Assembly: GCA_025463215.1 (NCBI GenBank)
Contig: JAOBWF010000234.1
Span: 1,822-65,821 of the forward strand
From: Acidobacteriota bacterium
GTDB lineage: Bacteria; Acidobacteriota; Vicinamibacteria; Vicinamibacterales; CAVVIG01
DNA: 64,000 nucleotides
Direction of reading: 5' to 3'
The notes under the pieces were generated by a model. That model had not been told where the DNA came from. It saw only the letters and a list, made by a program, of their open reading frames with translations, and ran no database searches. The translations under genes and the position numbers were made by a program. Below are positions 7,073 through 21,332 of this stretch, one piece after another; position 1 is the first letter of the stretch, and every line of letters starts with the position of its first letter.

Positions 7073-9964
7073 TTGAAGGAGTGGTCGCACATGTGCCGAC
7101 TTGCAAGCGTCCTTTGTGTGTGTCTTCTGGCCGCGCCGTCTCTTCGCGCGCAAACGACGGCGAGCGGCAGCGTTCGCGGGATCGCGACCGACCCGCAAGG
7201 TGCGGTCCTGCCAGGCGTCTCGATCTCGGTCGACAGCGCGACGGTTCCCGGCATTCGCACCGCCACGACCGATCAACGCGGTGAGTTTCGTGTGCCCGAG
7301 CTGCCGCCCGGTGAGTACACGTTGACCGCGGAGCTCCAGGGTTTTTCCCGGTTCGTGCGGTCGCCGATTGCCATCAGTGCCGGATTGAATGTGACCGTCG
7401 ACGTCCCGATGAGTGTCGGCGCGATCACCGAAACGGTCGAAGTCCGGCAGGAGACGCCGCTACTCGAATCCTCGAGGGCGTCACAGGCGGTGAACATCAG
7501 CGGCGAGATGCTCCGGGCGATCCCCCTCTCGGAGCGCCGGGAGTGGTTCGGCGCGCTGATGCTCGCACCTGGCGTGACCACCGCTCAATGGGTCAACAAC
7601 GAAGTGCTGATGTACGTCCACGGCGCCGACTCGTCGGCCAACGTCGTGCAGATCGACGGCGCGGACATGACCCCGTCGCTGATGGGAGGAGTTCGCTATG
7701 TCAGCCTGAACATCGATGCGATTGACGATATCCAGATCAAGACCGCGGGCATCGACGCGTCCGCGCCGCTTGGCGTCGGCGGCATCATCAACATCGCCAC
7801 GGCAAGCGGCACGAACCGGTTGAAGGGAACGGCAACCGTCTTCGTCCAGCCGCGCGCCTGGAACGCTTCGAATAACCCTGGAGGCACGAGCAGCACGGTC
7901 GATCAGGCACAGGCCGATCTGTCGGCGGGCGGGCCGCTCGTCAAGAACGCATTGTGGGTGTTCGGTTCGTACCGTCGCGTCGACGCCAACACCGGCGTCA
8001 GCCGAACGGCGGCGCAGTTGGCCACCCTTCAGGCGCTCGCGCCGCAGTACACGCCGCTCGACAGCACGAATGCGGCCAATCTCGCCTTCATCAAGTTGAA
8101 CACGCAGTGGTCTGCCGCACACCGGCTCGAGGGCTTCTATCAGCGCGACGTCAACCCCGTCACGTTTTCGGATGCCACGACGCAGTACTCCCGACGGGAA
8201 GCCACGGGGGGACGCGGCGTCTCCGTCCGGTTGTCGTCGGTGTGGTCCGATCACCTGACGACCCGCGCCGGGGCGAGCTTCAACGACAAGCGGCGCGACG
8301 GCCAGGACCCGGGGATCGGCGGGCCGCTGCAGATCGTCTACTCGAGCACGATCGCGTCGGCGGGCCGACTGGCCGGCAACGGCCGCCTCGCGAATCTCGG
8401 GTCGCCGGTCACGGCATGGAACGGTCAGCCCAACTCGAAGCTCACTCTCTCGTTCGACTCGACCTTCCTCGCGACCACCCGCACCGGCTCGCACGAACTG
8501 CAGACCGGCCTCTACGCGCAGCCGCGCACCCGCATCGGCTTGACGACGTCGTACGTGAACGGCGGCTACGTGCTCGAAGAAACGACGCTGCGGCGTCCAG
8601 GCGCGGTCGACAGCGGAATCGTACCGTTTCATCGCATCACGTTCGACGGCACGGGGCTCACCAACGCGCAGCGGGTCGGACAGGACTACGCGATCTACAT
8701 TCAGGATGCGTGGCGGCCGACGACGCAGCTCACGATCAACGCCGGCGTCCGCCTGGATCGGATCGACTGGACCGACCAGTTGTTCGACATCACCTCGCAG
8801 ACGAGCACCGAAGTCGGACCGCGGTTCGGACTCAACTACGCCATTACCTCTGACGCCCATCACATCCTCAGGGCGCATTGGGTGAAGGTCCACGATCAGC
8901 CGTCGCTGACCGCGGTGTCGGTGGGGACCGTCAGCCTCACCCAGCGTGACGCCTACGACCTGAACCTCGACGGGGTGTTCGAGACCACGTTTGTCACTCC
9001 CGCGACCCTTGCCGTCACGCCCGCGCGATCGATCGACCCCGACCTACATCAACCGTTCGTGGAGGACTGGGGTGCCGGCTACACCCAGCAATTCCGGGGC
9101 CGGACGACCGCCGGGATCGACGTCGTGCGACGCGACTATCGCGACCGCCCCACCCTGCTCGAAACCAACGGTCGCTACAACGGCAAGGTGTTCACCGGGT
9201 ACATCAACGAGGCGTTCAACCAGATCTACCTGCTGACGAACAATCGCTGGAATACGCCGGTCTACACGTCGGTCGAACTCTCCGCCACGAAGCGCACCAA
9301 CCGGATCCAGGCGGTCGGCAGCTACGTCAGGCAATGGCGCCACATCGACGGCACGTGGCAGCCCAACGATCCCGCGTCGTTCATTCAGCCGGCGGCCTTC
9401 GCCAACGATCGAGGCATCGGCAGCCCCATCGGCGCCACCGCCTCGCCGGACGACGCCAACAGCCTCTCGGGGACCAACATGTCGCAGGCCGCCACTGCCA
9501 GTGCGCAATGGCAGGACCATGTCGCACGCGCCGGTGCGACCTACCGCGCCGCGTGGGGTCTGCAGCTGTCGAGCAGCTACACGTTTCAATCCGGAGCGTG
9601 GTCCGGCCCCGTCGTCTCGCAGGGTGCGGCGGATCCAGCGTTCGGTCCGCCGACGCTGACATTGTCGAACGGCCGGGTCGTGAGCAACCCGCTCGCGACG
9701 ACCATTCGGTTCGCGTATCCCACCCGCGCCGATGGCCAGGTGCGAACCGCGCGGTTGCACGTCTGGAACGTTCGCGTCGGCCGGCAGTTCATCGTCAATC
9801 ACGTCAAGCTCGACGCGGCGCTCGACATGTTCAACCTCACGAACAATGGCGCCGATCAGAGTTTCATGTCGGGGGCCAACCAGACCTATAACCCGCTCTA
9901 CGGGCTCACCAACAACCGTCAACTGCCGCGATCCGCACAGGTTCTCCTGCGCGTCGGGTTCTGA
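7073..9964 (+). CDS. TonB-dependent-receptor-like outer membrane protein with CarboxypepD_reg-like N-terminal domain
   Basis: Signal peptide (CRLASVLCVCLLAAPSLRAQ). CarboxypepD_reg-like segment GSVRGIATDPQGAVLPGVSISV...GEFRVPELPPGEYTLTAELQGF. Plug-like VEVRQETPLLESSRASQAVNISGEML. Aromatic C-terminus ...LLRVGF. Confidence 0.8.
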   Translation: MKEWSHMCRLASVLCVCLLAAPSLRAQTTASGSVRGIATDPQGAVLPGVSISVDSATVPGIRTATTDQRGEFRVPELPPGEYTLTAELQGFSRFVRSPIAISAGLNVTVDVPMSVGAITETVEVRQETPLLESSRASQAVNISGEMLRAIPLSERREWFGALMLAPGVTTAQWVNNEVLMYVHGADSSANVVQIDGADMTPSLMGGVRYVSLNIDAIDDIQIKTAGIDASAPLGVGGIINIATASGTNRLKGTATVFVQPRAWNASNNPGGTSSTVDQAQADLSAGGPLVKNALWVFGSYRRVDANTGVSRTAAQLATLQALAPQYTPLDSTNAANLAFIKLNTQWSAAHRLEGFYQRDVNPVTFSDATTQYSRREATGGRGVSVRLSSVWSDHLTTRAGASFNDKRRDGQDPGIGGPLQIVYSSTIASAGRLAGNGRLANLGSPVTAWNGQPNSKLTLSFDSTFLATTRTGSHELQTGLYAQPRTRIGLTTSYVNGGYVLEETTLRRPGAVDSGIVPFHRITFDGTGLTNAQRVGQDYAIYIQDAWRPTTQLTINAGVRLDRIDWTDQLFDITSQTSTEVGPRFGLNYAITSDAHHILRAHWVKVHDQPSLTAVSVGTVSLTQRDAYDLNLDGVFETTFVTPATLAVTPARSIDPDLHQPFVEDWGAGYTQQFRGRTTAGIDVVRRDYRDRPTLLETNGRYNGKVFTGYINEAFNQIYLLTNNRWNTPVYTSVELSATKRTNRIQAVGSYVRQWRHIDGTWQPNDPASFIQPAAFANDRGIGSPIGATASPDDANSLSGTNMSQAATASAQWQDHVARAGATYRAAWGLQLSSSYTFQSGAWSGPVVSQGAADPAFGPPTLTLSNGRVVSNPLATTIRFAYPTRADGQVRTARLHVWNVRVGRQFIVNHVKLDAALDMFNLTNNGADQSFMSGANQTYNPLYGLTNNRQLPRSAQVLLRVGF

Positions 9965-9972
9965 GGAGGACT

Positions 9973-12900
9973 TTGATGCGACGCGTTGCCGCGGCGCTGA
10001 GCCTCACGCTGTCTGCGGCCATCATCGCGCAGCCGGCGGCGGAGTCGGGGTTGAAGCCGATGTCCTTCTCCAATCGGCTGCTGCTGAACCGTGCCGCGGT
10101 CAGCGGCGTGACCACGTTGGAGGTGATGCTGGCGCTCGCGGCAGGTGGCGTCGCGGAGACGTCCCGCCGGATTGAACGGAACGGCGGACGGATCCTCCAC
10201 AGCGATGCGGCCGTCGGCTACCTGCGCGTCGCCGTCGCCACCGACAAGCTGATCGAAGCGGTCGGTGATCCTGGCGTCGAGGCATACCAGATCGCGTCGC
10301 TGTCTCGCGGCAGCTGGTACCGCGACGGGCCGCCGCAAAGCAATGCCGACATGTACCGCGGATTCGAGCGCGTGATCGCGGATGTCCGCCCGCGGCTCGA
10401 TCAGAACCCGCAGCGCCCCTCGCTTTCGCCGGAGGACGCGAGCGGACGCGGCTACACCGGAGAGGAGGACGCCGGCGTACGGGAATGGATCGAGAAGCAT
10501 CCAACCTACGACGGCCGCGGTGTCACGATCGCGATGCTCGAGACCGGGCAGCCGGAGTTTCTGTCGTCGATTCTCGGTCAGGCAACGTCGCTCGACGGCC
10601 GCAGCGTGCCCAAGCTCGCCGGCATCATCAACGCCGTCGGTGCCGACGAACCAGACGACACGCGCGTGGTGCTGGACGTCGAGGTCTCGGCACAAACCGC
10701 GTGGAACCGTATCGGCGATCGCACCTACGCCTTTCCCCGGTCGGGCCGCTTCCGGTTCGGGATGTTTACTCTGCCGGTCGCCGTCAATCTCATCGCGCAG
10801 TTCGGGGTGCTTCAGGACGAAGCGACACACGAGGTGTGGGTCGACGCGAACGGGAACGCGGACTTCCGTGACGAAGCCGCGGTTGCCGATGTCAACCAGC
10901 GATTCGATCCCCGCACGCTGAAGGTGCCGTACCGTGGACAGACCGACCTCGGGTTCGTGATCGGCGCGGGACGCGCGCCTCATACCCTCCATGTCTATGC
11001 GAGCCGCGGCGGCCATCAGACGATGACGCTGAGCGTCGCTGCCGGAAGCCGGACCAAAGACAGTATCGCGTTCGGCGTCGCGCCAGGCGCTCGCGTTCTG
11101 CTGGTGAGAAATCAGACGCCCGACGGCCGTCTTCGCGACTTCATCGAGGGCTACCTCGAAGCCGCCAAGCGGCCGGACGTCGATCTGCTGTCCGATTCCT
11201 TCGGCGCCGTCATGGTACCCGACACCGCCGCCGACTTCGCCGGGTTGCTGTTTCACCGGATAGTCGTCGCGTACGGCAAACCCATTTTCCATAGTGCCGG
11301 CAACATGTCGCTGTTCCTCGGCAGCGTCTCTGCGCTCGGCGATGCGTTCTCGGTTGGAGGATCGATCGGTCCGGAGACGTTCGCCGCGCTCTTCGGCGGC
11401 GCCTCATTGCCGCGTCTCATGATTCATCCGATCGGGGCCGCCGGTCCGGCGATCGATGGTGCGTTGAAGCCCGACTTCGTCGCGCCGATGCACCGCGTCG
11501 CCGCCGACCTGGCCTCGGCAGTGGCGAAGACGCCGCTGCCCAAGAACGCCGCGACTGGGTATCTCCCCGCCGGGTATCAGATTAGCTGCTGTACCTCGTC
11601 GAGCGGCCCCTATGCCGCGGGTATCGGCGCCCTGCTCCTCAGCGCCGCCAAGCAGGAACAGCAGCCTTATGCGTACGCGGCCTTCGCCCGCGCGTTGCGC
11701 GTCGCCGCCCGCTTCCTGCCCGAATCACCGGCGCACGAACAGGGCAGTGGTGTGCTCGATGTGAATGCCGCGTGGGACGAGCTGAAGCGCAACGTGGACA
11801 TTCCGCGGATCGTGAGCACCGCGAACGTCGTGCATCCGCTTGCGGGGTACGCGGCACGCGGCGGCGAGGGCCACGGTATCTTCGAGTCGGAGGGCTGGAC
11901 CGCCGGCATGGCCGGCACGCGCGTCATTCGCTTCAGGCGCGAATCAGGCTCGGTGCACCCGGTGCGTTACCGCGTGTCGTGGACCGGGAATCGCGGTGTG
12001 TTTGCGACCGGCGCCTCGATCAGATTGCCGCTCGGGGAGACCGTGTCGTTGCCGGTGGTGATCAACGTGCCGTCGGCCGGCGCGCACAGCGCGATCCTGA
12101 ACCTGCACGACCCAGCCACCGACGCCGTGATCTTTCGCACCCAGGCGACCGTCGTTGCCGCCGAACAGTTCGACCACGGCGACCGCACCGTTCGCCTCGC
12201 GGGAACATTGCCGCTTCTCGGCACGCGCGCGCACTACCTGTCGGTGCCCAGCGATATCGCCGCGATCGCCGTCGAGTTGAAGGTGCTCCGCGGTTCGGTG
12301 CGAGCAACCGTGCTCCCGAGCCATGGGCTGTTTCCGAATTATTACTATCAGGTCTTTCCGCAGAGCGGACGGACCTTCAGGCCCGGGACCTACCACGTGA
12401 CGCTGCCCAATCCTGTCTCGGGCACCTGGGGGATCATGGTGGACAACACGTCGGCGTTGCGCGAACCGGACCAAAGCCTCGTCTCGACAGAGGAGGCGGA
12501 GTACACGCTCACGGTCCGCCTGCTGGACGCGTCGCTCGGGACGCGGTTGTCGAGTGCCGGTGTCCTCGGCGTCGAGCTCGAGAATCGCGGGGCGCCGCTC
12601 GCACAGGCGGCGCTTCAGATCTCGCGCGGCGTCCTGATGTCCCATCACGGAACCACGCTCGCGACCGGACTGCCGAATCAATTCGCCATCGACGTACCGG
12701 CGGGCGCCGCGTCGCTCACGCTCCGACTGCGCGGCACGTCCGCGGCGGCGCAGCTATTCGAGCTTTATCTCTACGATTGCACAACCGGGGAATGCTTCTC
12801 GTACAACTTCACCCTCCCCGCGGCCGCGGCACCCACGTTGGTGGTTCGGCGGCCTGCGGCAGGTCGCTGGATCGCGGCTGTCAACGCGGCGCCGACACCG

Positions 12901-13185
12901 CTGGCGGCACTCCCCTTCGAGCTGGATGAAGTGATCGCGACCACGCCGCTGCCACCGACAGGCTTGCCCCATTCGCAGCTGCCCGCGGCGCATTGGGCCG
13001 ACACGATGCCGCTGCCGCCGTCGACCGCGGCGCCCCCCGGCGGCACGCCGGTGCTGCTGCTGGAGCTCTTCGACCGCGCGGTGGACCGTGATGACACGGA
13101 CTACCCGTGGGAGACCCGTCCAGTCCTGCCGACACTGCGGGATCGTCCGGTCGCGATCGGCATGTCGATTCACCGGCTCCGGTGA
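9973..13185 (+). CDS. Secreted subtilase (S8, tripeptidyl-peptidase-II-like layout) with large C-terminal extension
   Basis: YDGRGVTIAMLETGQ (Asp-box region), GGHQTMTLSVAAGS...GVAPGARVLLV (His region), FHSAGN (Asn) and ISCCTSSSGPYAAGIGALLLSA (Ser region). Begins 8 nt after the receptor gene. Confidence 0.7.
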   Translation: MMRRVAAALSLTLSAAIIAQPAAESGLKPMSFSNRLLLNRAAVSGVTTLEVMLALAAGGVAETSRRIERNGGRILHSDAAVGYLRVAVATDKLIEAVGDPGVEAYQIASLSRGSWYRDGPPQSNADMYRGFERVIADVRPRLDQNPQRPSLSPEDASGRGYTGEEDAGVREWIEKHPTYDGRGVTIAMLETGQPEFLSSILGQATSLDGRSVPKLAGIINAVGADEPDDTRVVLDVEVSAQTAWNRIGDRTYAFPRSGRFRFGMFTLPVAVNLIAQFGVLQDEATHEVWVDANGNADFRDEAAVADVNQRFDPRTLKVPYRGQTDLGFVIGAGRAPHTLHVYASRGGHQTMTLSVAAGSRTKDSIAFGVAPGARVLLVRNQTPDGRLRDFIEGYLEAAKRPDVDLLSDSFGAVMVPDTAADFAGLLFHRIVVAYGKPIFHSAGNMSLFLGSVSALGDAFSVGGSIGPETFAALFGGASLPRLMIHPIGAAGPAIDGALKPDFVAPMHRVAADLASAVAKTPLPKNAATGYLPAGYQISCCTSSSGPYAAGIGALLLSAAKQEQQPYAYAAFARALRVAARFLPESPAHEQGSGVLDVNAAWDELKRNVDIPRIVSTANVVHPLAGYAARGGEGHGIFESEGWTAGMAGTRVIRFRRESGSVHPVRYRVSWTGNRGVFATGASIRLPLGETVSLPVVINVPSAGAHSAILNLHDPATDAVIFRTQATVVAAEQFDHGDRTVRLAGTLPLLGTRAHYLSVPSDIAAIAVELKVLRGSVRATVLPSHGLFPNYYYQVFPQSGRTFRPGTYHVTLPNPVSGTWGIMVDNTSALREPDQSLVSTEEAEYTLTVRLLDASLGTRLSSAGVLGVELENRGAPLAQAALQISRGVLMSHHGTTLATGLPNQFAIDVPAGAASLTLRLRGTSAAAQLFELYLYDCTTGECFSYNFTLPAAAAPTLVVRRPAAGRWIAAVNAAPTPLAALPFELDEVIATTPLPPTGLPHSQLPAAHWADTMPLPPSTAAPPGGTPVLLLELFDRAVDRDDTDYPWETRPVLPTLRDRPVAIGMSIHRLR

Positions 13186-14477
13186 GCGGAATCGAGTGCG
13201 TGCGCCAGCCGCTGCGCGCTGCGCATCCCGGCGAGCTCGCGCGCGCCGTGCACCTCGCCGCGCTCGATTTTCTGCAGCAGCCGCTGCCACCCGAGATGAC
13301 AGTCGATCAGGATCGACGCGGTTTCGATGTCGGACCAGCACGTGTCCAGCGCGAGCTGCGGAGTCCACGATGCCTCGTATGCATGACGAAGAGCGTCAAC
13401 CCACGACGGCCAGTCGGCACCCGCCCGGAGCCGGCGCGCTCGTCGCAGGAACGTTGCCAGGGGCAGCGGCGCGGCGCCGATGTGCGAGTCGTCCAGATCG
13501 ATGAACCGCACCGATTCGTCGTCGATCAGCACATTGCCGGCGTCGAGGTCGAGCGGCGCCCAGCTGCAGGGGAAATCAGCGGCGGCGACGCTGCGCTGTG
13601 CTCGGGCGATCGCCGCGTCACAACGATCGACGGTTGCTGACGACATGTGGGCACGAAGGAGTGCCCGCGCCCACTTCGAAACCATCGCCAGATCGACCGC
13701 GGGGATCGGAAACGCCGCGGCGTGATCGCTGACACGCTGCTGAATGCATCCGAGTGCCGCGACGACGAGCCGCATCCGTTCGACCGTGAGGTCCGCCGCG
13801 ACCGTCGTGCCGGAACAGTGCGCGGTCAACCACCATGCCGATCCGTCGGCACGACTTTCGAGCGCCAGCGTAGGAGCGAATGACTCAGGCAACTCGGATG
13901 ACAGGATCGACGTGACCGCCGCCTCGCGGAGGCGGTCGCCCGTCAGCCCTTTGAGATACGACTGCCCATGCGCCGTGGCAACGCGCAGCACGACTTCGTG
14001 CGGCGTGATCTTGTAGAACACCGGTGAGCCGGACAGCGGGCCGGCGACCATCTGCAGCCAGTCGCAAGCTTCGTCGAACCACGTCATCGACCCGAACGGA
14101 CCGGCGATCGATGGCACCTCTCCTGGAATCGCCTGCTCCAGCGCCCACCGCTGATAGTCGGCGATCGATGGCGAGGACTTCAGGTGTTCGAGTGGCACCC
14201 ACTGCAGGTCACGAGGCATCCCGCCCCGGCGCGCCGCGCGCGCGTCGACGATCACCAGCCAGTCGATCGCATCGTTCGTCGGCGTAAGGCGCCCGAGCCA
14301 CTGCCCCACGACGGGGCCGTCGACGCCGCGCTCAGCGGCCCAGCCGGCGACGACCGGACCCGCCCGCATGCGCTCGGTGCAGCACACGATCGGTAGGAGC
14401 CACCGTGATCCGCGGACCGTCGCCAGCCCCTCGCGGCGGTCACGATCGACGATCAGGACGTGAAGGATCTGTTCCAT
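13170..14477 (-). CDS. Aminoglycoside-phosphotransferase-fold (APH/choline-kinase-like) kinase, last gene of the lasso operon
   Basis: Brenner-like and DFG-like motifs WAPLDLDAGNVLIDDESVRFIDLDDSHIG, plus an extra domain of about 120 aa at the N-terminus. Same strand as the precursor genes and immediately downstream of them. Confidence 0.65.
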   Translation of the reverse strand: MEQILHVLIVDRDRREGLATVRGSRWLLPIVCCTERMRAGPVVAGWAAERGVDGPVVGQWLGRLTPTNDAIDWLVIVDARAARRGGMPRDLQWVPLEHLKSSPSIADYQRWALEQAIPGEVPSIAGPFGSMTWFDEACDWLQMVAGPLSGSPVFYKITPHEVVLRVATAHGQSYLKGLTGDRLREAAVTSILSSELPESFAPTLALESRADGSAWWLTAHCSGTTVAADLTVERMRLVVAALGCIQQRVSDHAAAFPIPAVDLAMVSKWARALLRAHMSSATVDRCDAAIARAQRSVAAADFPCSWAPLDLDAGNVLIDDESVRFIDLDDSHIGAAPLPLATFLRRARRLRAGADWPSWVDALRHAYEASWTPQLALDTCWSDIETASILIDCHLGWQRLLQKIERGEVHGARELAGMRSAQRLAHALDSAHRSR

Positions 14478-14483
14478 GGCAAG

Positions 14484-14516
14484 TCTCGCCTTCGGCTGCG
14501 CACACCGAAGGCGAGA
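14484..14516 (-). terminator. Stem-loop between precursor gene and kinase gene (12-bp stem, 9-nt loop)
   Basis: TCTCGCCTTCGG-N9-CCGAAGGCGAGA, located between the precursor stop (14528) and the kinase start (14477). Possible partial terminator or attenuator that sets the precursor:enzyme ratio. Confidence 0.45.
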
Positions 14517-14527
14517 GTCGAGCGTGA

Positions 14528-14668
14528 TCAGTCGTCGAGGCCGAGGGTCAAGCCGACGGGCGACTGCGACTGCTCGGAAACGCAGTTGTCACCCTGCCCG
14601 GGGAGTCCGCCCAGCACAAGCACGTGGGCTGGACCGAGGACGACGAGTTCAGGCGTTGAGTAGGTCAT
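14528..14668 (-). CDS. Lasso peptide precursor (copy 1, downstream copy), 46 aa
   Basis: Manual translation: MTYSTPELVVLGPAHVLVLGGLPGQGDNCVSEQSQSPVGLTLGLDD, stop TGA. RBS GGGAGGTG lies 6 nt upstream. Below the ORF-track size cutoff. Confidence 0.8.
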   Translation of the reverse strand: MTYSTPELVVLGPAHVLVLGGLPGQGDNCVSEQSQSPVGLTLGLDD

Positions 14669-14702
14669 GGCATTCACCTCCCTTCACGGTGGATTGCGGC
14701 GT

Positions 14703-14718
14703 CGGCGGACGTCCGCCG
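14703..14718 (-). other. 16-bp perfect palindrome CGGCGGACGTCCGCCG between the two precursor genes
   Basis: Lies 12 nt after the stop of precursor copy 2. Possible small stem-loop. Confidence 0.3.
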
Positions 14719-14729
14719 ATCGGGTCGTG

Positions 14730-14870
14730 TCAGTCGTCGAGGCCGAGGGTCATTCCGACAATCGGATTCGAGAACTGCGAGACGAGATTGTCCCCCGCTC
14801 CCGGCGTGCCGCCGAGCACGAGCACGTGTGCCGGGCCGAGGACAACGAGTTCAGGCGTTGAGTACGTCAT
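14730..14870 (-). CDS. Lasso peptide precursor (copy 2, upstream copy), 46 aa
   Basis: Manual translation: MTYSTPELVVLGPAHVLVLGGTPGAGDNLVSQFSNPIVGMTLGLDD, stop TGA. RBS AAAGGAGGTG. The start overlaps the last 20 nt of the cyclase gene. Confidence 0.8.
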   Translation of the reverse strand: MTYSTPELVVLGPAHVLVLGGTPGAGDNLVSQFSNPIVGMTLGLDD

Positions 14871-16752
14871 GGTGTTCACCTCCTTTCTGTTTTGGCGTTA
14901 CGGCGGGGCCCCGCCGATCTCGTGATGTCAACCACTGCTCGAGGCGCAAGGCGCGGCGAACCTCCGCACCCGCGGCGGCGCCGCCGTCGATCACGTCGCG
15001 AATCGCCGCGTCGAGCCGCTCGGGATCCAGCCAGCCGCGCCGCACGACCTCGAGACGATCGACCGGACGGGCGGCTTGCGCGCGCGGACGAAGCGTCCGC
15101 ATCGCGGTCGGCGGATAGTAGCCCTTCGAGGTGCGCTGCACGACGCGCGGCGGAAGCAGCTCCGCGAAGGATCGGCGCATCAGCGATCGCATCCGCCCCG
15201 GTGCGCTGAGCTCCTCACCGGGAATCGCGAGGACGAATTCGACCAGCGGACGATGAATGAACGGGTAGGCGTAAGTGATGTCGAGCGGCGGCGCTGGAAT
15301 GCTCAGTCGCGCCTCGCCGGAGTAGCCGAGCAGTTGCCGTGCGAGCGCACGTTTCGACGGCGGAAACGCGGATGCCACCGCGGCTGTCGTGTCATCCGGC
15401 AACGCCTCTGCCAGCGACCGCAGGCGGCTGGACAGAAGATAGGCGCCGCGCTGCTGTGTCTCGCTCAGGGCGGCGGGACGGACGGCCGGAAATGCCGCGG
15501 ACAGGCGCTCGCGGGCGAGCTGCCATCCGATCTCGATGAACGGCTTGCGCGTCGCCCGGCTCCATTGACGCATACCGGCCGCTGCCTTCAGCCATCGTCT
15601 ATCGGCCACATCGTCGAATACGGCGACGCTGTTGTCGAACAGGCAGCCCATCACGGCGTCGCCGACACGGCCCGACAGCACGAGTCGACCTCCGTGTTCG
15701 CGGACGTACTGAACCAGCGCGAGACCGACACCGTGCGCCGCGAGCGGCGTCGCCCAATCGGCGGCCGCATCGTCGACCTCGCGATGATCGTCGAGGATCA
15801 GGAGGCGGCTTTTCGTGCCGATGCGATCCTCGACTGCGGCGATGAATCGCCGTTCGTCGCCCTCCGGCGAGCCGGCCGGGACGTGCGAGATCGGCTGTAT
15901 CGCCGCGGCATCGACGCGCTTGTCGTTGATCAGCACGTCCGCCATGCACACGACCGACGAAGAGTCGAGTCCGCCGCTCAACTCGGCCCACGCCGTGCCC
16001 TCGGCGCGGAGCCGCGTACCGACCGCCTCGGTCCACAGCGCCCGCAGCCGTTCTTCATAGAGGCGCGGATCGCGATATCGCACGACGGCCGGCTCGAGAT
16101 TCCAGACGCGGCGTGTCTCGATGCGATCGACCGACACGGACACACAGTGCGCCGTCGGCACGGCGTGGACGCCCTCGTACGGCATCACGTCGGTCGAGTG
16201 GCGAAGCGCCATGAATCGTGCGATGAAGCGTTCGTCGATCGCATCAACGCAGCCGACCCGAGACGCCAGCTCGCCGAGACTGCTCGACCAGGCGACGAAT
16301 CGGCCGCGGCAGCCGTAGTAGTAGAGCGGCCGCACGCCCATGTAGTCGCGAGCGAAGTACAGGGTCCTCCGGCGGCCGTCCCAGATCACGAGGCTCCAGT
16401 CGCCAATCAGCCGACCCAGGCCTTCGATGCCCCACCGCTCGAAAACCGCCAGGGCGATCGCGGCATCGCTGGCGTCACGCGACGAGGTGTGCCCGAGCGT
16501 CAGGCAGAGATCGTCGCGGTTGTCCAGTCGACCATCCCAGGTCATCACGAGCCCCGAAGACGACTGTCGCGGCTGCCGCGACGTTCGCTCCCCCGCCCAC
16601 ACATGACAGGCGCCATGCGCCAGGACCGCGCCGGCGTGCGCGAACGCCGACACGCCGTCCGGCGCGATCGGCGCCAACCCGGCGGCCACTTCGCGGCACG
16701 CTTCGTCGGTTGGACGGCGGTCGAAGTACACGACTCCGGCTTGTGCTGCCAT
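14851..16752 (-). CDS. Lasso peptide cyclase (asparagine-synthetase-like, C protein)
   Basis: 633 aa. AsnB-like N-terminal domain without the catalytic Cys1, and PP-loop ELSGGLDSSSV. Sits directly after the B2 gene. Confidence 0.85.
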   Translation of the reverse strand: MAAQAGVVYFDRRPTDEACREVAAGLAPIAPDGVSAFAHAGAVLAHGACHVWAGERTSRQPRQSSSGLVMTWDGRLDNRDDLCLTLGHTSSRDASDAAIALAVFERWGIEGLGRLIGDWSLVIWDGRRRTLYFARDYMGVRPLYYYGCRGRFVAWSSSLGELASRVGCVDAIDERFIARFMALRHSTDVMPYEGVHAVPTAHCVSVSVDRIETRRVWNLEPAVVRYRDPRLYEERLRALWTEAVGTRLRAEGTAWAELSGGLDSSSVVCMADVLINDKRVDAAAIQPISHVPAGSPEGDERRFIAAVEDRIGTKSRLLILDDHREVDDAAADWATPLAAHGVGLALVQYVREHGGRLVLSGRVGDAVMGCLFDNSVAVFDDVADRRWLKAAAGMRQWSRATRKPFIEIGWQLARERLSAAFPAVRPAALSETQQRGAYLLSSRLRSLAEALPDDTTAAVASAFPPSKRALARQLLGYSGEARLSIPAPPLDITYAYPFIHRPLVEFVLAIPGEELSAPGRMRSLMRRSFAELLPPRVVQRTSKGYYPPTAMRTLRPRAQAARPVDRLEVVRRGWLDPERLDAAIRDVIDGGAAAGAEVRRALRLEQWLTSRDRRGPAVTPKQKGGEHHDVLNA

Positions 16753-16771
16753 CTCGCGCTGCCCTCCTGGA

Positions 16772-17176
16772 TCACAGACGGTCGAGGACGGTAAAGCATG
16801 TCTGGTACTGCGGCCGGTCGTTGACGATGCGGCCGTCGACTTCGACCCAGGCGTGCGATTCGAACGGAATCCCGCGGTATCCGATCACCAGTTCGGCGCG
16901 AACGCCGTATCGCCTGAGCAGGCATGTCGTTACCGCGGAGCGCTGCAGGCACGGCGCACGCTTCACATACCAGACGCACGCCTCGTCCACCGCCCAGACG
17001 ATCTGCTCCGGATCGGTTTCGCGGCCCGGCGCCTCGACACGGCAGCTGCGCACCCGCTCGTGCGCGCGCCCGAAGCCGGCGAGCAGGGCGACGTCGAATG
17101 CCGCCAAACCGAACCAGGCGCGGGCGGTGAGCCACGGCCGGCGACGCGTGGCGAAGGCGGCGCGCAGCGTCAGCAT
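16772..17176 (-). CDS. Lasso peptide leader peptidase B2 (transglutaminase-like cysteine protease)
   Basis: MLTLRAAFATRRRPWLTARAWFGL...EACVWYVKRAPCLQRSAVTTCLLRRYGVRAELVIGYRGIPFESHAWVEVDGRIVND (Cys...His...Asp pattern). I place the start at ATG 17174-17176, overlapping the B1 stop (ATGCTGA). The track ORF is extended upstream. Confidence 0.8.
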   Translation of the reverse strand: MLTLRAAFATRRRPWLTARAWFGLAAFDVALLAGFGRAHERVRSCRVEAPGRETDPEQIVWAVDEACVWYVKRAPCLQRSAVTTCLLRRYGVRAELVIGYRGIPFESHAWVEVDGRIVNDRPQYQTCFTVLDRL

Positions 17177-17472
17177 GCCGACTCCGCGGTGACGAGGCCA
17201 CGCGCCTCGAGGGCCGTGACGAACGCCCCGACGTCGCGCTGCGTGCGTTCGATCGACACGCCGTAGTCGCACGCCAGCCGGCGCGCAATCTCGAGGCAAT
17301 CGAGGCGCGACTCGAGCAGCTGCCAGATCCGCGCACCGATCGGGTTCGACGCGAGCACGATGCCGCCGTGCACGTCGAGCAGGACGAGACCATCGCCGGA
17401 GATCGACGCGCGCACCGCCGGCGAGATCTGAAAATGCGTTCGTGCTGTCCTGCGGTCGTCGATCATCGGCAC
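17170..17472 (-). CDS. Lasso peptide B1 protein (PqqD-like RiPP recognition element)
   Basis: 100 aa: FQISPAVRASISGDGLVLLDVHGGIVLASNPIGARIWQLLESRLDCLEIARRLACDYGVSIERTQRDVGAFVTALEARGLV. RBS GGGAGGG upstream. Confidence 0.8.
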   Translation of the reverse strand: MPMIDDRRTARTHFQISPAVRASISGDGLVLLDVHGGIVLASNPIGARIWQLLESRLDCLEIARRLACDYGVSIERTQRDVGAFVTALEARGLVTAESAC

Positions 17473-17500
17473 CCTCCCGGGAATCGCTGCACCGTCATGC

Positions 17501-17514
17501 GCAACGTGCGTACC
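17501..17514 (-). promoter_or_regulatory. Candidate sigma-54 (-24/-12) promoter for the lasso operon
   Basis: The minus strand reads GGTACG-CACG-TTGC, against the consensus TGGCACG-N4-TTGC (GG and GC separated by 10 nt). The -12 GC is 28 nt upstream of the B1 ATG, leaving a short leader that contains the RBS. Confidence 0.45.
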
Positions 17515-17879
17515 GCGCGCGGCAGCGGCAAATCACGTGTGAAACCGCGCGTTCACGTGCTGCGCGGCGAGCCGCGCCGTGCGCGCGCATGCGCGCCCAG
17601 CAACTCACGTTGTCACTCGGACTTTCTCCTTGTCTTCGCCCCAAGACGACGTTACGATTTTCTTGTTCGCTCGCTGAACCGGTTCGCCGGCAGCGCCCCA
17701 CCTGTCACCACGCCTGGCGCCGCCCATTCGCACCGCGCACGCTCGACGGCGAAGACCCGACGCGCGGCAACGCCAACGGTCGGCCTCACCGTCACGCACT
17801 CCGTCAGCGGCCGACCACACTGCAGTGACGCACTGCGGCCGCCGCCGTGTCGTTGCGCTGTTCTCCGAAGGAGGGTCCC

Positions 17880-18287
17880 ATGCGTCGTCGTCAACCGAAG
17901 TCCGATCCGCTTGCTGATTGGCCCTGGACACTGCGTTGGCTCATTCAGGCCGCGAAGCAGGAGTGCCCGCGTGGTCACGCCAGCGCTCTCCGCGAGCTGA
18001 CGGCGCTCGCCCTGCACAAGGTGCCCTCGCGCGGCATCTTCGATCCGGCGGTACGTGGCGAGGAGGATCTGTTCGCCGCCATCGAGGCGGTCGCGAAAGC
18101 TCATCTCGAGCTCGGCGCGGCGCGCGTCGCCTGGCGGACCGCGTTGGACGGCGGTGACCTGAACCTGGAACAACGCGACGCCTTGGAGCAGGCGGCGCTG
18201 CAGGTGCAGAGCGTATCGGACACGGCGTATTTCTACGCGGGCCTCGCGTTTGGGCTCGCATTTGTCTATGTCCACCGGTCGACGTAG
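17880..18287 (+). CDS. Hypothetical protein, upstream of the sigma-54 activator gene
   Basis: ATG 17880 preceded by GAAGGAGGG (MRRRQPKSDPLADWPWTLRWLIQAAKQECPRGHASALRELTALAL...), with a hydrophobic C-terminus YFYAGLAFGLAFVYV. Divergent from the lasso operon. Confidence 0.5.
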   Translation: MRRRQPKSDPLADWPWTLRWLIQAAKQECPRGHASALRELTALALHKVPSRGIFDPAVRGEEDLFAAIEAVAKAHLELGAARVAWRTALDGGDLNLEQRDALEQAALQVQSVSDTAYFYAGLAFGLAFVYVHRST

Positions 18288-18369
18288 ACGGAAGACCGGG
18301 AAGGCGCAAGCCAAACGAGCGATGGCGCACGTGTGCGTTTCGACGGCGCGCAGCGTTCTAGACGTCAGC

Positions 18370-19581
18370 ATGGCCATCAAGGACACGCCGCGCGGATGGC
18401 CGCGCTCCGCGACCGTGGCGCCGACGCAACGTCTGTCCGACGCGCTGTCGCTCGTCCGCCGGCGCCGTTCGACTGACGGTGCGGACGTGCTGCTCGAGGA
18501 GTGCCTTGCGTTGCTCGACCAGGTCGCCGAACAGTCGCCGTTCACGCGTGTGACATCGTCTGTCGCGGAGGCCCGCTCACGCGCCGCGCCGGCCGCCGAC
18601 GACCCGCTTCCCGAGCTGGACGGCCATTCGGCGTTGATCGAGCAGCTGAAGGACGACATCGTGTGCGTGGCGCGCGATCCGTACGTGTCTGTGCTGGTTC
18701 GAGGGGAATCCGGAACCGGCAAGGAGCGGGTCGCACGAGCCATCCACCGGTTGTCTTCGCGCGCCGCCCATTCGTTCGTCGTCGTGAACTGAGCCGGTCT
18801 GACACAGACGCTGGCAGAAGACGAGCTGTTCGGGCACGAGCGCGGCGCGTTCACCGGCGCGGTGGCCGATCGGCCGGGGCCGTTCGAGCGCGCGAACGGC
18901 GGAACGGTGTTTCTCGACGAGATCGGCGAGCTGGCGTCCGATTCGCAAATGAAGTTGTTGCGCGCGCTTCAGCAGCGCACCGTTCAGCGGCTGGGCAGCG
19001 GGCAGGAGACGCCGTTCGATGTGCGGGTGATTGCGGCCACGAACGCGGACCTTGAATTGGCGCAGCGGCGCGGGCGGTTTCGCCAGGATTTATACTACCG
19101 CCTCAAAGTCTACGAGCTGCGTGTGCCGCCGCTGCGGCGTCGCGGCGAGAGTGATCTTCGTCAACTTGCCGGGGCGATTCTGGAGCATCTCGCGGCCCGG
19201 CGGCACCGTCCGCCGGCGATCCTCGCGCCGGCCGTATGGGATGCGTTCGCACGGTACACGTGGCCGGGCAATGTCCGCGAGCTCGAGAACACACTCGAAC
19301 GGATGATCGTCGCCGCGGCAGACGACACGCTGTTGACGCGGGCGCATATGCCCGGCGAGCTCCGCGCGATGGCCGAGCGGATGCAGGGTTCGATCGACGG
19401 AGGGGCGAATGACGCGACGAGTCCGCTGCCCTCACCCGCCGAGGCGCGCGCGATCCTTCAACGGCACGATCTCAACCACGGACGAGCCGCCGCCGAGCTC
19501 GGTATATCGAGGCACCAGCTGTATCGGCTTCTCAAGCGCCGCGAGGTCGTCGACTCGGCTGCCGGCCGAGTGCCGGCTTGA
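18370..19581 (+). CDS. Sigma-54-dependent transcriptional activator (bEBP, no receiver domain) interrupted by one in-frame TGA at 18790-18792
   Basis: Walker A VLVRGESGTGKE, then ...[32 protein letters not shown] (GAFTGA), FLDEIGEL (Walker B), RVIAATN and a Fis-type HTH (AAAELGISRHQLYRLLKRR). Track ORFs 18250-18792 and 18862-19581 are in the same frame. The start is uncertain (18322 or 18370). Confidence 0.7.
18793..18815 (+). other. Stem-loop immediately 3' of the in-frame TGA of the activator gene
   Basis: GCC-G-GUCUG-ACA-CAGAC-GCU-GGC. The apical loop is ACA with no GU, so it is the weakest of the four SECIS-like candidates. Confidence 0.25.
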
Positions 19582-20290
19582 CGCGGGAATGATCGGCGGC
19601 CCTCGGCTCCTGACTGCGGCGGCGAACCGCGCGTACGACCGGCGTTCGCCGGGGCTCCCCGGCGCCGGTGATCGTCGTCGCGCCGCCCTCTTCCCGGTCG
19701 CCGCCCGCCGCTCCGTCCTGCGCCCACGCCCGCAGCCGCGCCAGCCCGCGGTAGTAATAGTGTCGCGCGCACCCCACAGAAACGGAGAGCCGCTTCGCGA
19801 CGTCCTGCATGCTGACTTCTTCGAAGCAGGCCAGTTCCAGGGTCGCTCGCTGCGGCGCGGTCAACTGTGCCAGGCCGCGTCGGATGAACCAGCGGCACTC
19901 CTGGTCCGTCAATGCCCGCGGCCGTCCACCAGCGGCCGGGTCGACGCTCTCAAGCGGCTCGCCGCGGTAGGCTGCGCGCCGGCGAAGCACGTTCTTGCGC
20001 TGCACGCTGCGCCGATAGGCGTATTGCAGCAGCCATACCCGAACCGCGCCACGCGCCGGATCGTAGAGGTGGGCCTTTCGATAGATTTCGAGGAAGACCT
20101 CCTGAGTCACGTCTTCGGCCTCCGCGTCGTCACGGAGAATGTCGGCGGCCACGCGATGGACCAGCCGGATGTACCGGCGGAACAGTGCCGCCAGCGCATC
20201 GCTTTCTGGCAGGTGCATTTCGGCGATCAGCACGGCGTCCGCTTTTTCGCCGGCGGCTCCGCGCCAGATCGTGTCGACAAAGCGTCTCAT
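19532..20290 (-). CDS. ECF-type RNA polymerase sigma factor
   Basis: Region 2 (DAEDVTQEVFLEIYRKAHLYDPARGAVRVWLLQYAYRRS) and region 4 (APQRATLELACFEEVSMQDVAKRLSVSVGCARHYYYRGLARLR). The 3' end overlaps the convergent activator gene by 50 nt. Confidence 0.8.
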   Translation of the reverse strand: MRRFVDTIWRGAAGEKADAVLIAEMHLPESDALAALFRRYIRLVHRVAADILRDDAEAEDVTQEVFLEIYRKAHLYDPARGAVRVWLLQYAYRRSVQRKNVLRRRAAYRGEPLESVDPAAGGRPRALTDQECRWFIRRGLAQLTAPQRATLELACFEEVSMQDVAKRLSVSVGCARHYYYRGLARLRAWAQDGAAGGDREEGGATTITGAGEPRRTPVVRAVRRRSQEPRAADHSRVKPALGRQPSRRPRGA

Positions 20291-20373
20291 CGTAGCGACC
20301 CTTAGGTGTTACCGTTTATCGACGTCCCTTATCGAAGCAGTGATGTCGATAGACGGTTCCAGCTTCGACGACT

Positions 20374-20790
20374 GTGAGATACACACGGCATGTGTCACGC
20401 CGCAAAGTAGCGAATGAAAAGCCCCCTCCGCGACCGGCCATCCTGCGCCCGCTCGGCAACCAGCTGCGTCGGTTGCGCCTCGAGCGAAAGCTGTCGCAGG
20501 AGCGCCTCGCCGAATTGGCGGGCTTGAACTATAAATACATCGGGCGGATCGAGCTGGCCAAGGCCGACCCCGGAGCAGACGTACTCGTCCGTCTTGCGCG
20601 TGCGCTGACGATCCCCGTCGGCGAGCTGTTCGCGACAATTACTCCCGGCGACCGCGGCCACCAGCTGTCGCCAGCCGACGTCGAAGCGCTGTCGTCAGCG
20701 CTGGGCGCTCTCACCGCCGTCGCGAATCGCATCGTCGCGCAGCAACCCCAGGCGCTGCCCTCGCGCGCGCCGCGCCGAACCCGGCGCTGA
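20374..20790 (+). CDS. XRE family HTH transcriptional regulator
   Basis: LGNQLRRLRLERKLSQERLAELAGLNYKYIGRIELAKADPGADVLVRLARALTIPVGELF. Exact start uncertain. Confidence 0.75.
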   Translation: MRYTRHVSRRKVANEKPPPRPAILRPLGNQLRRLRLERKLSQERLAELAGLNYKYIGRIELAKADPGADVLVRLARALTIPVGELFATITPGDRGHQLSPADVEALSSALGALTAVANRIVAQQPQALPSRAPRRTRR

Positions 20791-20920
20791 CCCGCAGGGC
20801 TCGCTATCGCCCTGAACGGCGACGACGATAACATCCGTCGATATCATTGTCAACGTTTGTAATACCTATAGGTGGTATCCGACGATGAAGAACGCGCGCG
20901 TCGGCCGGGCGCGTGCGCGC

Positions 20921-21286
20921 CTAGCCCGCGCGACGCCGCTTCGCACGAGCGATGATCTGCAGCGCTTCCTCGATGCACCGGAGCTCGTCATGCGTGATCA
21001 GGCACAGAGAGGTGCCGGCGGGTTCCCGGCGATTGGGAAACAGATCGACGACATCGACGGCGAGCCCGCTCGCGATCGAGGCGAGAACGTCGAGGCCGAC
21101 GTTCGTTTTGCCGCGCTCGACCTGTGAGATGTGCTTTTCCGTATTGCCCGCGCGCTCCGCCAGCTGTTCCTGACTCCAGCCGCGCTGAAGTCGCAGCTCC
21201 TTGACTCTTTTGGCCACGCGCAGCCGCACCGGCAGGTTCGCTCCCATCCGGCGGCAACTATCGGCCAACCGCGACGGGCTTACCAC
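20921..21286 (-). CDS. XRE family HTH transcriptional regulator
   Basis: VAKRVKELRLQRGWSQEQLAERAGNTEKHISQVERGKTNVGLDVLASIASGLAVDVVDLF. Same architecture as 20374-20790. Confidence 0.75.
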   Translation of the reverse strand: MVSPSRLADSCRRMGANLPVRLRVAKRVKELRLQRGWSQEQLAERAGNTEKHISQVERGKTNVGLDVLASIASGLAVDVVDLFPNRREPAGTSLCLITHDELRCIEEALQIIARAKRRRAG

Positions 21287-21288
21287 AA

Positions 21289-21329
21289 CGTATGAGTTCA
21301 GTTGTGGAGCCTAACTGAATCTATACGTC
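21289..21329. promoter_or_regulatory. Imperfect 15-bp-arm inverted repeat in the XRE/ECF divergent promoter region
   Basis: ACGTATGAGTTCAGT-N11-ACTGAATCTATACGT (12 of 15 positions complementary). A nested CCACAAC/GTTGTGG repeat lies at 21283-21307. Confidence 0.35.
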
Positions 21330-21332
21330 CTT

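What the first reader, a model, noticed from the sequence alone, without database searches (positions are those of the whole stretch)
14528..14870. Two tandem, unannotated 46-aa precursor genes: identical leaders kept by synonymous-only change, diverged cores
Seen by manual translation. A1 (14528-14668) is MTYSTPELVVLGPAHVLVLGGLPGQGDNCVSEQSQSPVGLTLGLDD. A2 (14730-14870) is MTYSTPELVVLGPAHVLVLGGTPGAGDNLVSQFSNPIVGMTLGLDD. Each has a GGAGG RBS, and the repeat period is 202 bp. Over the first 21 codons the copies differ at 8 nucleotides, all synonymous (ACC/ACG, GTC/GTT, GGT/GGC, CCA/CCG, GCC/GCA, CTT/CTC, CTG/CTC, GGA/GGC). This is strong evidence of purifying selection on the leader peptide. The middle of the core differs at 10 of 27 positions, while the C-terminal TLGLDD is conserved. 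The leader fits the known lasso motif Y-x-x-P-x-L-x3-G. Inference: cleavage occurs before G20 (or G21) with a Gly1-Asp8 (or Gly1-Asp7) macrolactam, i.e. GGLPGQGD / GGTPGAGD rings with 19-residue tails. The usually conserved Thr at leader position -2 is replaced by Val or Leu, which is atypical.
Basis: partly seen in the sequence, partly recalled or inferred. Interest (0 to 1): 0.8.

Follow-up and report, generated by a model that had tools for sequence, protein, structure and literature searches.

The report
Twin lasso-peptide precursor genes, soil Acidobacteriota
Two small neighbouring genes encode the starting peptides for a knotted "lasso" peptide made by the three enzymes next door in an uncultured soil bacterium. 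It is a real, uncharacterised member of a known natural-product class, not a new kind of system.

Summary
Two 46-codon ORFs lie on the minus strand: A2 at 14730-14870 is transcribed first, then A1 at 14528-14668. Each has a GGAGG ribosome-binding site and the period is 202 bp. Codons 1-21 differ by 8 synonymous and 0 non-synonymous changes (P about 7e-5 under neutrality). The cores differ at 9 residues, not 10.

They sit directly after lasso genes B1 (PqqD), B2 (transglutaminase-like protease) and C (Asn-synthetase-like cyclase).

I collected 115 unique homologues from about 50 Vicinamibacterales and soil-metagenome loci. All show the same arrangement where enough of the contig was recovered.
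- Invariant: Y(-17), P(-14), L(-12), G(+1).
- Val(-2): 104/105.
- Asp/Glu(+8): 104/105.
- Position +2 is variable.

This favours cleavage at L19|G20 and a Gly1-Asp8 ring with a 19-residue tail.

Val/Ile(-2) lasso leaders are already reported in Acidobacteriaceae and elsewhere. So is an acidobacterial B1-kinase-B2-C-A1-A2 cluster with two 141-bp A genes.

New here:
- The downstream 435-aa protein is a Nudix-fold plus APH-fold kinase.
- Its presence tracks Ser/Thr at core positions 12 and 15.
- An S8-like peptidase and an outer-membrane barrel are always adjacent.

No product is shown.

Verdict: new member of a known kind, moderate interest.

The parts
14730..14870 (-). Precursor gene A2, first in transcription; 46 aa. 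Predicted leader is residues 1-19; predicted core is GGTPGAGDNLVSQFSNPIVGMTLGLDD.
   Evidence: Translation. Its first 20 nt overlap the 3' end of gene C. 115 unique homologues.
14528..14668 (-). Precursor gene A1, second copy; 46 aa. Predicted core is GGLPGQGDNCVSEQSQSPVGLTLGLDD.
   Evidence: Translation. Leader pS=0.43, pN=0 against A2.
14879..14883 (-). Shine-Dalgarno GGAGG of A2, within AAAGGAGGTGA. It lies inside the last codons of gene C.
   Evidence: The same GAAAGGAGGTGA is conserved upstream of the first precursor in other loci.
14677..14681 (-). Shine-Dalgarno GGAGG of A1.
14484..14516 (-). 13-bp G+C-rich hairpin directly after the A1 stop codon and before the kinase gene. Candidate attenuator or mRNA 3' stabiliser.
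   Evidence: -25.8 kcal/mol, z=-3.3. A hairpin with a 10-18 bp stem follows the last precursor gene in all nine loci examined, with different stem sequences and a recurring GCGC(A) in or around the loop.
14851..16752 (-). Lasso cyclase C, 633 aa, Asn-synthetase-like.
   Evidence: PF00733, PF13537, PF13522. NF033535 lasso cyclase E=1.4e-72, below its curated cutoff. SGGLDSS motif read in the translation.
16772..17176 (-). Leader peptidase B2, about 134 aa. The open frame extends to 17299.
   Evidence: PF13471 E=4.7e-24; NF033537 at 76.6 bits against a cutoff of 33. 47% identical to the Acidobacterium capsulatum B2 listed with the Ile/Val(-2) clusters. Start taken from the gene call on the identical contig.
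17170..17466 (-). B1, a PqqD-type RiPP recognition element, about 98 aa.
   Evidence: PF05402 E=2.5e-14. Lasso PqqD NCBIfam models match at E=4.6e-08 and 4e-07, below their cutoffs.
13170..14477 (-). X435: N-terminal degenerate Nudix-fold domain plus an APH-fold kinase. Candidate tailoring kinase for Ser/Thr at core positions 12 and 15.
   Evidence: AF2 model pLDDT 93. Foldseek best hits are APH-family, corramycin and amicoumacin kinases, E as low as 6.6e-10. The N-domain matches Nudix folds at TM 0.6-0.69. K176, E185, D310, N315 and D327 are invariant. Its presence co-varies with S/T31 and S/T34.
9973..13185 (+). Convergent 1070-aa S8-like peptidase, always adjacent to the lasso genes; role unknown.
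   Evidence: PF00082. Syntenic in nearly every locus long enough to show it, including L052, where C is only 32% identical; L004 had no S8 match in the expected position. E190, H348, N444 and S542 are invariant.
7073..9964 (+). CarboxypepD_reg / TonB-dependent-receptor-like outer-membrane barrel (963 aa), co-directional with the S8 gene and immediately upstream of it.
   Evidence: PF25183, PF13620, and weak PF00593 and PF07715. Synteny.

Best explanation
A1 and A2 are two functional paralogous precursor (A) genes of a lasso-peptide gene cluster in an uncultured Vicinamibacterales (Acidobacteriota) bacterium. The gene order is B1-B2-C-A2-A1-kinase.

**Proposed steps**
1. The operon is transcribed on the minus strand. 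A2 starts 20 nt before the C stop codon, and its Shine-Dalgarno sequence lies inside C. This suggests translational coupling (overlap shown; coupling inferred).
2. The 19-residue leader, with Y(-17), P(-14), L(-12) and G(-8), is bound by the PqqD-type B1 protein (inferred from characterised lasso systems).
3. The Nudix/APH-fold kinase X435 phosphorylates Ser31 and/or Ser34, which are core residues 12 and 15, probably on the linear precursor (inferred from co-variation and fold).
4. B2 cuts between L19 and G20, using Val(-2) in place of the usual Thr (inferred).
5. The cyclase C activates the Asp27 side chain with ATP and joins it to the Gly20 amine. This gives an 8-residue macrolactam (GGLPGQGD or GGTPGAGD) around a 19-residue tail ending in the conserved GLDD (inferred).

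Strict selection on the leader with free divergence of the core is the normal signature of one enzyme set serving two products.

Export and the role of the adjacent S8-like peptidase and outer-membrane barrel are unknown.
For: - **ORFs, ribosome-binding sites, dN/dS:**. Leader pN=0 against pS=0.43; tail pN/pS about 0.65.
- **B1, B2 and C identified:**
- **Homologues:** 49 clusters of 45-46 aa, plus 7 genome loci, all Vicinamibacterales or Acidobacteriota MAGs, plus 43 metagenome loci.
- **Conserved order** B1-B2-C-A(1-2), with the first A overlapping C. Among loci with flanks on both sides, 24 have two copies and 16 have one.
- **Position profile:** M1, Y3, P6, L8, A14, G20, L44 and D45 invariant. 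V18 is 104/105. D/E27 is 104/105, with three Glu. Position 21 has entropy 2.35 bits.
- **Only two motif matches** in the window.
- **Kinase:** fold and catalytic residues. S/T at both positions 31 and 34 occurs in 52/53 precursors of kinase-containing loci and 1/12 of kinase-less loci (Fisher 1.6e-10). Kinase-less loci fall in several branches of a C-protein tree. By direct reading, most of them carry Glu at position 34.
- **Literature:** YxxPxL at -17 to -12 with Ile/Val(-2) and a Gly1-Asp8 ring was proposed for related clusters (PMC10368454). An acidobacterial B1-APH kinase-B2-C-A1-A2 cluster with two 141-bp A genes is described in PMC9064862.
Against: - No peptide product has been observed here.
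- The two papers on the related Val/Ile(-2) and acidobacterial clusters did not detect a mature lasso peptide after heterologous expression (PMC10368454 section 22; PMC9064862 section 17).
- Thr(-2), the best-known recognition residue, is absent.
- The NCBIfam lasso leader model scores 11.2 bits against a cutoff of 19 for A1 and gives no hit for A2. The cyclase and B1 score below the curated cutoffs of the lasso-specific models.
- No ABC exporter (D) is in the conserved module.
- The A1 tail has no aromatic or basic residue that could serve as an obvious steric plug (direct reading).
- The neighbouring sigma-54 activator has an in-frame TGA in this genome, so the cluster may be poorly expressed.
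- The kinase-Ser/Thr co-variation comes from related sequences and a short-alignment NJ tree, so the events are not fully independent.
Confidence: 0.8

Rival explanations
1. Same precursors, different processing: cleavage after G20, so the core starts at G21 and forms a 7-residue Gly1-Asp7 ring.
For: In the window both copies have G21, and 7-membered lasso rings are known. Gly is the commonest residue at position 21 (50/105).
Against: Position 21 is D, V, A, I, F, K or S in about half of the family, while G20 is invariant. The Y(-17)/P(-14)/L(-12) register places +1 at residue 20 (direct reading; register as in PMC10368454).
Confidence: 0.1
2. The identical leaders are kept alike by recent duplication or gene conversion, not by purifying selection. 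The ORFs need not both be functional.
For: The first 8 codons (apart from one synonymous change) and the last 6 codons plus the stop are identical at the nucleotide level.
Against: Eight synonymous differences lie within the leader (pS=0.43), with none non-synonymous. The same pattern (7 synonymous, 0 non-synonymous) is seen in the paralogue pair of locus L001 and in window-versus-L001 comparisons. Both copies are retained intact in 24 loci. Zero differences in six C-terminal codons is not unexpected (about 2 expected; own estimate).
Confidence: 0.05
3. The peptides are made and cut but do not become threaded lassos. They could be branched-cyclic or linear phosphopeptides, or peptides whose conserved C-terminal GLDD is the functional end, for example a signal processed by the adjacent S8-like peptidase and taken up through the outer-membrane barrel.
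For: The C-terminal G43-L44-D45-(D/E)46 is as conserved as the leader. The S8 peptidase and OMP are syntenic even in the most distant locus. The A1 tail lacks bulky residues. Mature lassos were not obtained from related clusters (PMC10368454, PMC9064862).
Against: A complete B1/B2/C set is conserved with an invariant Gly(+1) and Asp/Glu(+8), exactly the pair a lasso cyclase joins. Failure of heterologous expression is common and not informative.
Confidence: 0.12
4. The ORFs are chance open frames or a non-coding repeat in G+C-rich intergenic DNA.
For: The window is 66% G+C and full of spurious ORFs.
Against: The dN/dS pattern. 115 unique homologues of constant length with invariant residues. 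Strong conserved Shine-Dalgarno sequences. Called as genes in other assemblies.
Confidence: 0.01

Closest known systems
Ile/Val(-2) lasso precursors of Bradymonadales, Acidobacteriaceae and Sphingomonadales (BsfA and relatives; Duan et al. 2023, PMC10368454)
   Same: - YxxPxL at -17 to -12.
- A hydrophobic Ile/Val at -2 instead of Thr.
- Gly1 and an Asp/Glu ring acceptor at position 8-9.
- Length of 42-51 aa.
- Split B1/B2.
- A kinase or phosphotransferase in the cluster.
- A conserved acidic C-terminus: Y-x-A-D-E in Acidobacteriaceae, G-L-D-D here.
- B2 is 47% identical to the Acidobacterium capsulatum B2.
   Different: - Different class of Acidobacteriota (Vicinamibacterales).
- The kinase here is a Nudix/APH-fold protein, not the HPr-kinase-like BsfK.
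- The predicted acceptor sites are internal tail residues 12 and 15, not Ser3.
- No ABC transporter or nucleotidyltransferase.
- An S8-like peptidase and an outer-membrane barrel are always adjacent.
Soil-metagenome lasso cluster BGC 482.1 (Negri et al. 2022, PMC9064862)
   Same: - Acidobacterial origin.
- B1, an 'aminoglycoside phosphotransferase family' kinase, B2 and C, followed by two tandem, manually annotated 141-bp A genes.
- A non-Thr residue proposed at -2.
- No product detected.
   Different: - There the kinase gene lies between B1 and B2 and is 1404 bp. Here it follows the A genes and is 1308 bp.
- Blast hits in that paper point to Acidobacteriia.
Paeninodin-type phosphorylated lasso peptides (PadeK, ThcoK, SyanK, PsmK; reviewed in PMC9266682)
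   Same: - A class II lasso with a cluster-encoded kinase.
- In those systems the kinase acts on the linear precursor before B2/C.
- Acidic, Ser-rich tails.
   Different: Those kinases are HPr-kinase-like and modify the C-terminal Ser. Here the C-terminus is Asp-Asp and the kinase has a different fold.
Isopeptidase-containing proteobacterial lasso clusters (astexin type; PMC9266682 section 10)
   Same: - A peptidase gene and a TonB-dependent-type outer-membrane protein next to the lasso genes.
- Sigma factors nearby.
   Different: - The peptidase is S8-like, with Glu190 where the Asp of the usual DTG motif is expected. It is not the type of isopeptidase found in those clusters.
- No GntR regulator was found.
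- No evidence that it opens the isopeptide bond.

Membership tests
Lasso peptide precursor (RiPP class) | Small ORF co-directional with, and adjacent to, B (or B1+B2) and C genes | tested here: met
   B1, B2 and C are directly upstream on the same strand. The same order appears in about 50 loci.
Lasso peptide precursor (RiPP class) | Leader recognition motif YxxPxLx3G at -17 to -8 | tested here: met
   Y3, P6 and L8 are invariant and G12 is 104/105. These are the only two matches in the window.
Lasso peptide precursor (RiPP class) | Thr at leader position -2 | tested here: not met
   Val in 104/105 family members. A documented rare variant (PMC10368454).
Lasso peptide precursor (RiPP class) | Gly (or Ala/Ser/Cys) at core position 1 and Asp/Glu at core position 7-9 | tested here: met
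   G20 is invariant. Position 27 is D in 101 and E in 3 of 105, giving ring size 8.
Lasso peptide precursor (RiPP class) | Match to a curated lasso leader model above its cutoff (NF033521) | tested here: not met
   A1 scores 11.2 bits against a cutoff of 19 (E=0.31). A2 gives no hit.
Lasso peptide precursor (RiPP class) | Mature product is a threaded N-terminal macrolactam | not testable with these tools
   Needs MS/NMR. Predicted monoisotopic masses are 2624.2024 Da (A1) and 2613.2381 Da (A2), plus 79.966 Da per phosphate.
Ile/Val(-2) kinase-associated lasso group (PMC10368454) | Ile or Val at -2 with the YxxPxL register | tested here: met
   V18; Y3 at -17.
Ile/Val(-2) kinase-associated lasso group (PMC10368454) | B2 related to the B2 proteins of that group | tested here: met
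   47% identity over 118 residues to A. capsulatum WP_015898265.1. No full phylogeny was made.
Ile/Val(-2) kinase-associated lasso group (PMC10368454) | HPr-kinase-like tailoring kinase | tested here: not met
   X435 is APH-fold with a Nudix-fold N-domain. It does satisfy the paper's looser wording, 'kinase or phosphotransferase'. It is absent from 10 of 42 classifiable loci.
Isopeptidase-type lasso clusters | Isopeptidase of the characterised lasso-isopeptidase family next to a TonB-dependent transporter and a sigma/anti-sigma pair | tested here: not met
   The peptidase is PF00082 S8-like. The outer-membrane barrel and sigma factors are present. No anti-sigma or GntR gene was identified.

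The most novel reading that the evidence does not exclude
The conserved ~11-kb module in Vicinamibacterales would make a new type of tailored lasso peptide. The module is B1-B2-C-A(-A)-kinase plus a convergent S8-like peptidase and a TonB-type outer-membrane barrel.

In this reading, a Nudix/APH-fold kinase, a fold not yet shown to act on lasso peptides, installs phosphate on internal tail residues 12 and/or 15. Lineages that lost the kinase hard-code the charge as Glu15. The secreted peptidase and barrel would process or re-import the peptide, in the way isopeptidase/TonB clusters do in Proteobacteria. That would point to a signalling or nutrient-scavenging role rather than an antibiotic one.
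Probability: 0.3. Interest if true: 0.6.

Novelty: new member of a known kind. Interest (0 to 1): 0.38.

Why it matters
It adds a well-supported, internally consistent family to the lasso peptides: 115 distinct precursors from abundant but uncultured soil Vicinamibacterales.

It confirms by comparative data that Val at -2 can fully replace the 'conserved' Thr, because it is invariant across the family. It also fixes the likely cleavage site and ring.

No mature product has been reported in the two papers I read on the related Val/Ile(-2) and acidobacterial clusters. The family therefore offers many natural substrate variants for testing how B1/B2 read a hydrophobic -2 residue.

The kinase/Ser-Thr/Glu co-variation gives a concrete, cheap hypothesis about a new tailoring enzyme.

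As a genome feature it is otherwise ordinary: a RiPP cluster with duplicated precursors.

Tried and rejected
- **Sequence search of X435 against PDB:** only noise, E about 2. Fold search was needed.
- **Pfam and NCBIfam on X435 and on A1/A2:** no Pfam hits; in NCBIfam only weak, sub-threshold matches.
- **Promoter/terminator consensus scan of 13000-18300:** no promoter-like site. The single terminator-like site (18237-18259, + strand) lies outside the cluster genes and is fewer than the shuffles give.
- **Short palindromes upstream of each A gene** (CGGCGG..CCGCCG): no more stable than shuffles, z=-0.5 to -0.8. Dropped as a feature.
- **N-domain of X435 as a leader-binding RRE:** rejected, because it is Nudix-fold.
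- **Orthology of first versus second copies** between the window and L001: unresolved, since all four comparisons are about equally diverged.
- **Literature searches** for lasso peptides in Vicinamibacter* and Acidobacteriota: no description of this family.
- **Supplement of PMC9064862:** an xlsx of 6,286 characters, listed but not opened; I judged it unlikely to hold the BGC 482.1 precursor sequences. Direct comparison was therefore not made.
- **RODEO** is not available here.
- **Other precursors in the window:** none.

Full report
**1. The observation**

The two ORFs are on the minus strand. A2 (14870->14730) comes first in the direction of transcription and A1 (14668->14528) second. The period is 202 bp, and GGAGG sits 8 nt before each ATG.

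Codon by codon, codons 1-21 carry the eight listed synonymous differences and no replacement. Nei-Gojobori counting gives 18.2 synonymous and 41.8 non-synonymous sites for codons 2-21. The chance that 8 of 8 neutral changes are synonymous is therefore about 7e-5. For codons 22-40 there are about 9.3 synonymous and 15.7 non-synonymous differences.

There are two corrections. The cores differ at 9 residues, not 10. And 'unannotated' cannot be checked: a Logan contig that is 100% identical to window 7180-18600 has both ORFs called as 46-aa genes.

**2. Context**

Immediately upstream on the same strand lie three genes (starts):
- A PqqD-type B1 (17170-17466).
- A transglutaminase-like B2 (16772-17176). 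It passes the curated NCBIfam cutoff for lasso B2.
- A 633-aa Asn-synthetase-like C (14851-16752). Its best NCBIfam match is the lasso cyclase model.

C ends 20 nt inside A2, so the A2 ribosome-binding site is encoded in the last codons of C.

Downstream of A1 there is a 13-bp hairpin (-25.8 kcal/mol, z=-3.3), then a 435-aa gene (13170-14477). Convergent with these are a 1070-aa S8-like peptidase and a 963-aa CarboxypepD_reg/TonB-receptor-like barrel.

**3. Relatives**

- A search with A1 found 49 clusters of 45-46-aa proteins, all metagenomic and unnamed.
- A genome scan found seven loci (six distinct contigs, L009 being the same contig as L002), all in Vicinamibacterales or Acidobacteriota MAGs.
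- A metagenome scan added 43 loci.

Wherever the contig is long enough, the order is B1-B2-C-A(one or two copies)-[435-aa gene or not]-S8<-barrel<-, with the first A overlapping C. One exception is L004, where no S8 match was found in the expected position. This order holds even in L052, where C is only 32% and S8 29% identical to the window proteins.

Among loci with flanks on both sides, 24 have two copies and 16 have one. The small ORFs are never disrupted where the enzymes are intact.

**4. Cleavage site and ring**

In 105 unique 46-aa members:
- M1, Y3, P6, L8, A14, G20, L44 and D45 are invariant.
- G12 and V18 are 104/105.
- Position 27 is D in 101 and E in 3.
- G24 is 96/105.
- Position 21 is highly variable.

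With Y at -17, P at -14 and L at -12, the core starts at residue 20. This is the register used for characterised systems and for the Ile(-2) family in PMC10368454.

The Asp/Glu alternation at position 27 is what is expected of the macrolactam acceptor. I therefore favour L19|G20 cleavage, a Gly1-Asp8 ring and a 19-residue tail, and disfavour the G21 start. This remains inference from sequence.

**5. The 435-aa protein**

It has no Pfam hit itself, but some relatives hit PF01636. An AlphaFold model built on 39 homologues is confident (pLDDT 93). It matches APH-family, corramycin and amicoumacin kinases. The invariant K176, E185, D310, N315 and D327 correspond, by my reading, to the catalytic set of that fold.

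Residues 1-125 form a Nudix fold whose Nudix-box glutamates are missing (and direct reading).

The gene is absent from 10 of 42 loci that could be classified. Precursors from kinase-containing loci have Ser/Thr at both positions 31 and 34 in 52 of 53 cases. Those from kinase-less loci do so in 1 of 12 (Fisher 1.6e-10). The kinase-less loci sit in several branches of a tree built from the C-terminal part of C, and most carry Glu at position 34.

I read this as a tailoring kinase acting on core Ser/Thr12 and/or 15, with Glu as a hard-coded mimic where the kinase is lost. The caveat is that the sequences are related and the tree is short.

**6. Comparison with what is known**

- Val/Ile at -2 has been reported for Bradymonadales, Acidobacteriaceae and Sphingomonadales precursors, with YxxPxL at -17 to -12 and a kinase in the cluster (PMC10368454).
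- The Acidobacteriaceae peptides listed there also end in a conserved acidic motif, Y-x-A-D-E. The window B2 is 47% identical to one of their B2 proteins.
- A soil-metagenome acidobacterial cluster with B1, an APH-family kinase, B2, C and two 141-bp A genes has been published (PMC9064862).
- Known lasso kinases are HPr-kinase-like and act on a C-terminal Ser, or on Ser3 in BsfA (PMC9266682, PMC10368454).
- Clusters with a peptidase, a TonB-dependent transporter and sigma factors are known for the isopeptidase type (PMC9266682). Here the peptidase is S8-like.
- I found no paper on this Vicinamibacterales family.

**7. Verdict**

It is a new, uncharacterised member of the lasso-peptide class, within the already noted Val/Ile(-2) acidobacterial group.

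No product is shown, and related clusters have so far resisted heterologous production.

Noticed in passing
window 18250-19581 (+), stop codon at 18790-18792: The sigma-54 enhancer-binding-protein gene beside the lasso cluster has an in-frame TGA exactly where the orthologue in L001 has the Cys of the conserved VVNCAGL motif. This could be a pseudogene, a sequencing error or recoding.
   Followed up: partly
window 14484-14516 (-); L001-L008 directly after the last precursor gene: A G+C-rich hairpin with a 10-18 bp stem follows the last precursor in all nine loci examined. The stem sequences differ between loci, and GCGC(A) recurs in or around the loop. Most lack a U-tract.
   Followed up: partly
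window 9973-13185 (+): The S8-like peptidase has Glu190 where the Asp of the usual DTG motif is expected (...AMLETG...). E190, H348, N444 and S542 are invariant in 12 orthologues. It has an N-terminal signal-like sequence and about 500 extra C-terminal residues.
   Followed up: partly
window 13170-14477 (-), residues 1-125: The N-terminal domain of the kinase-like protein is Nudix-fold but lacks the catalytic glutamates of the Nudix box. A Nudix/APH fusion in a RiPP cluster is unexplained.
   Followed up: partly
L036:1-330: On this short contig, a kinase-less-type precursor (DNTNPDYERP, no Ser/Thr at positions 31/34) lies just downstream of the 3' end of an X435-like gene. This suggests that some loci carry an extra precursor after the kinase gene.
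   Followed up: no
window 17880-18287 (+): A 135-aa gene with no family match lies divergent from B1. It is conserved at the same place in L001, L002 and L053, between B1 and the sigma-54 activator.
   Followed up: no
window 19532-24465: Two sigma-70/ECF-type sigma factors, an XRE-type HTH regulator and an 837-aa Ser/Thr protein kinase with a large N-terminal membrane region flank the cluster. The same set flanks it in L001 and L002.
   Followed up: no
L051:866-1003; L052:3656-3995: A more distant precursor subfamily (MRYSTPELVEVG...TVLGG..., ending in EFELN or EFEIN) keeps the same neighbours: C, an X435-like protein (26-27% identical) and, on the longer contig L052, S8 and the barrel. Its acceptor appears to be at core position 9.
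   Followed up: no
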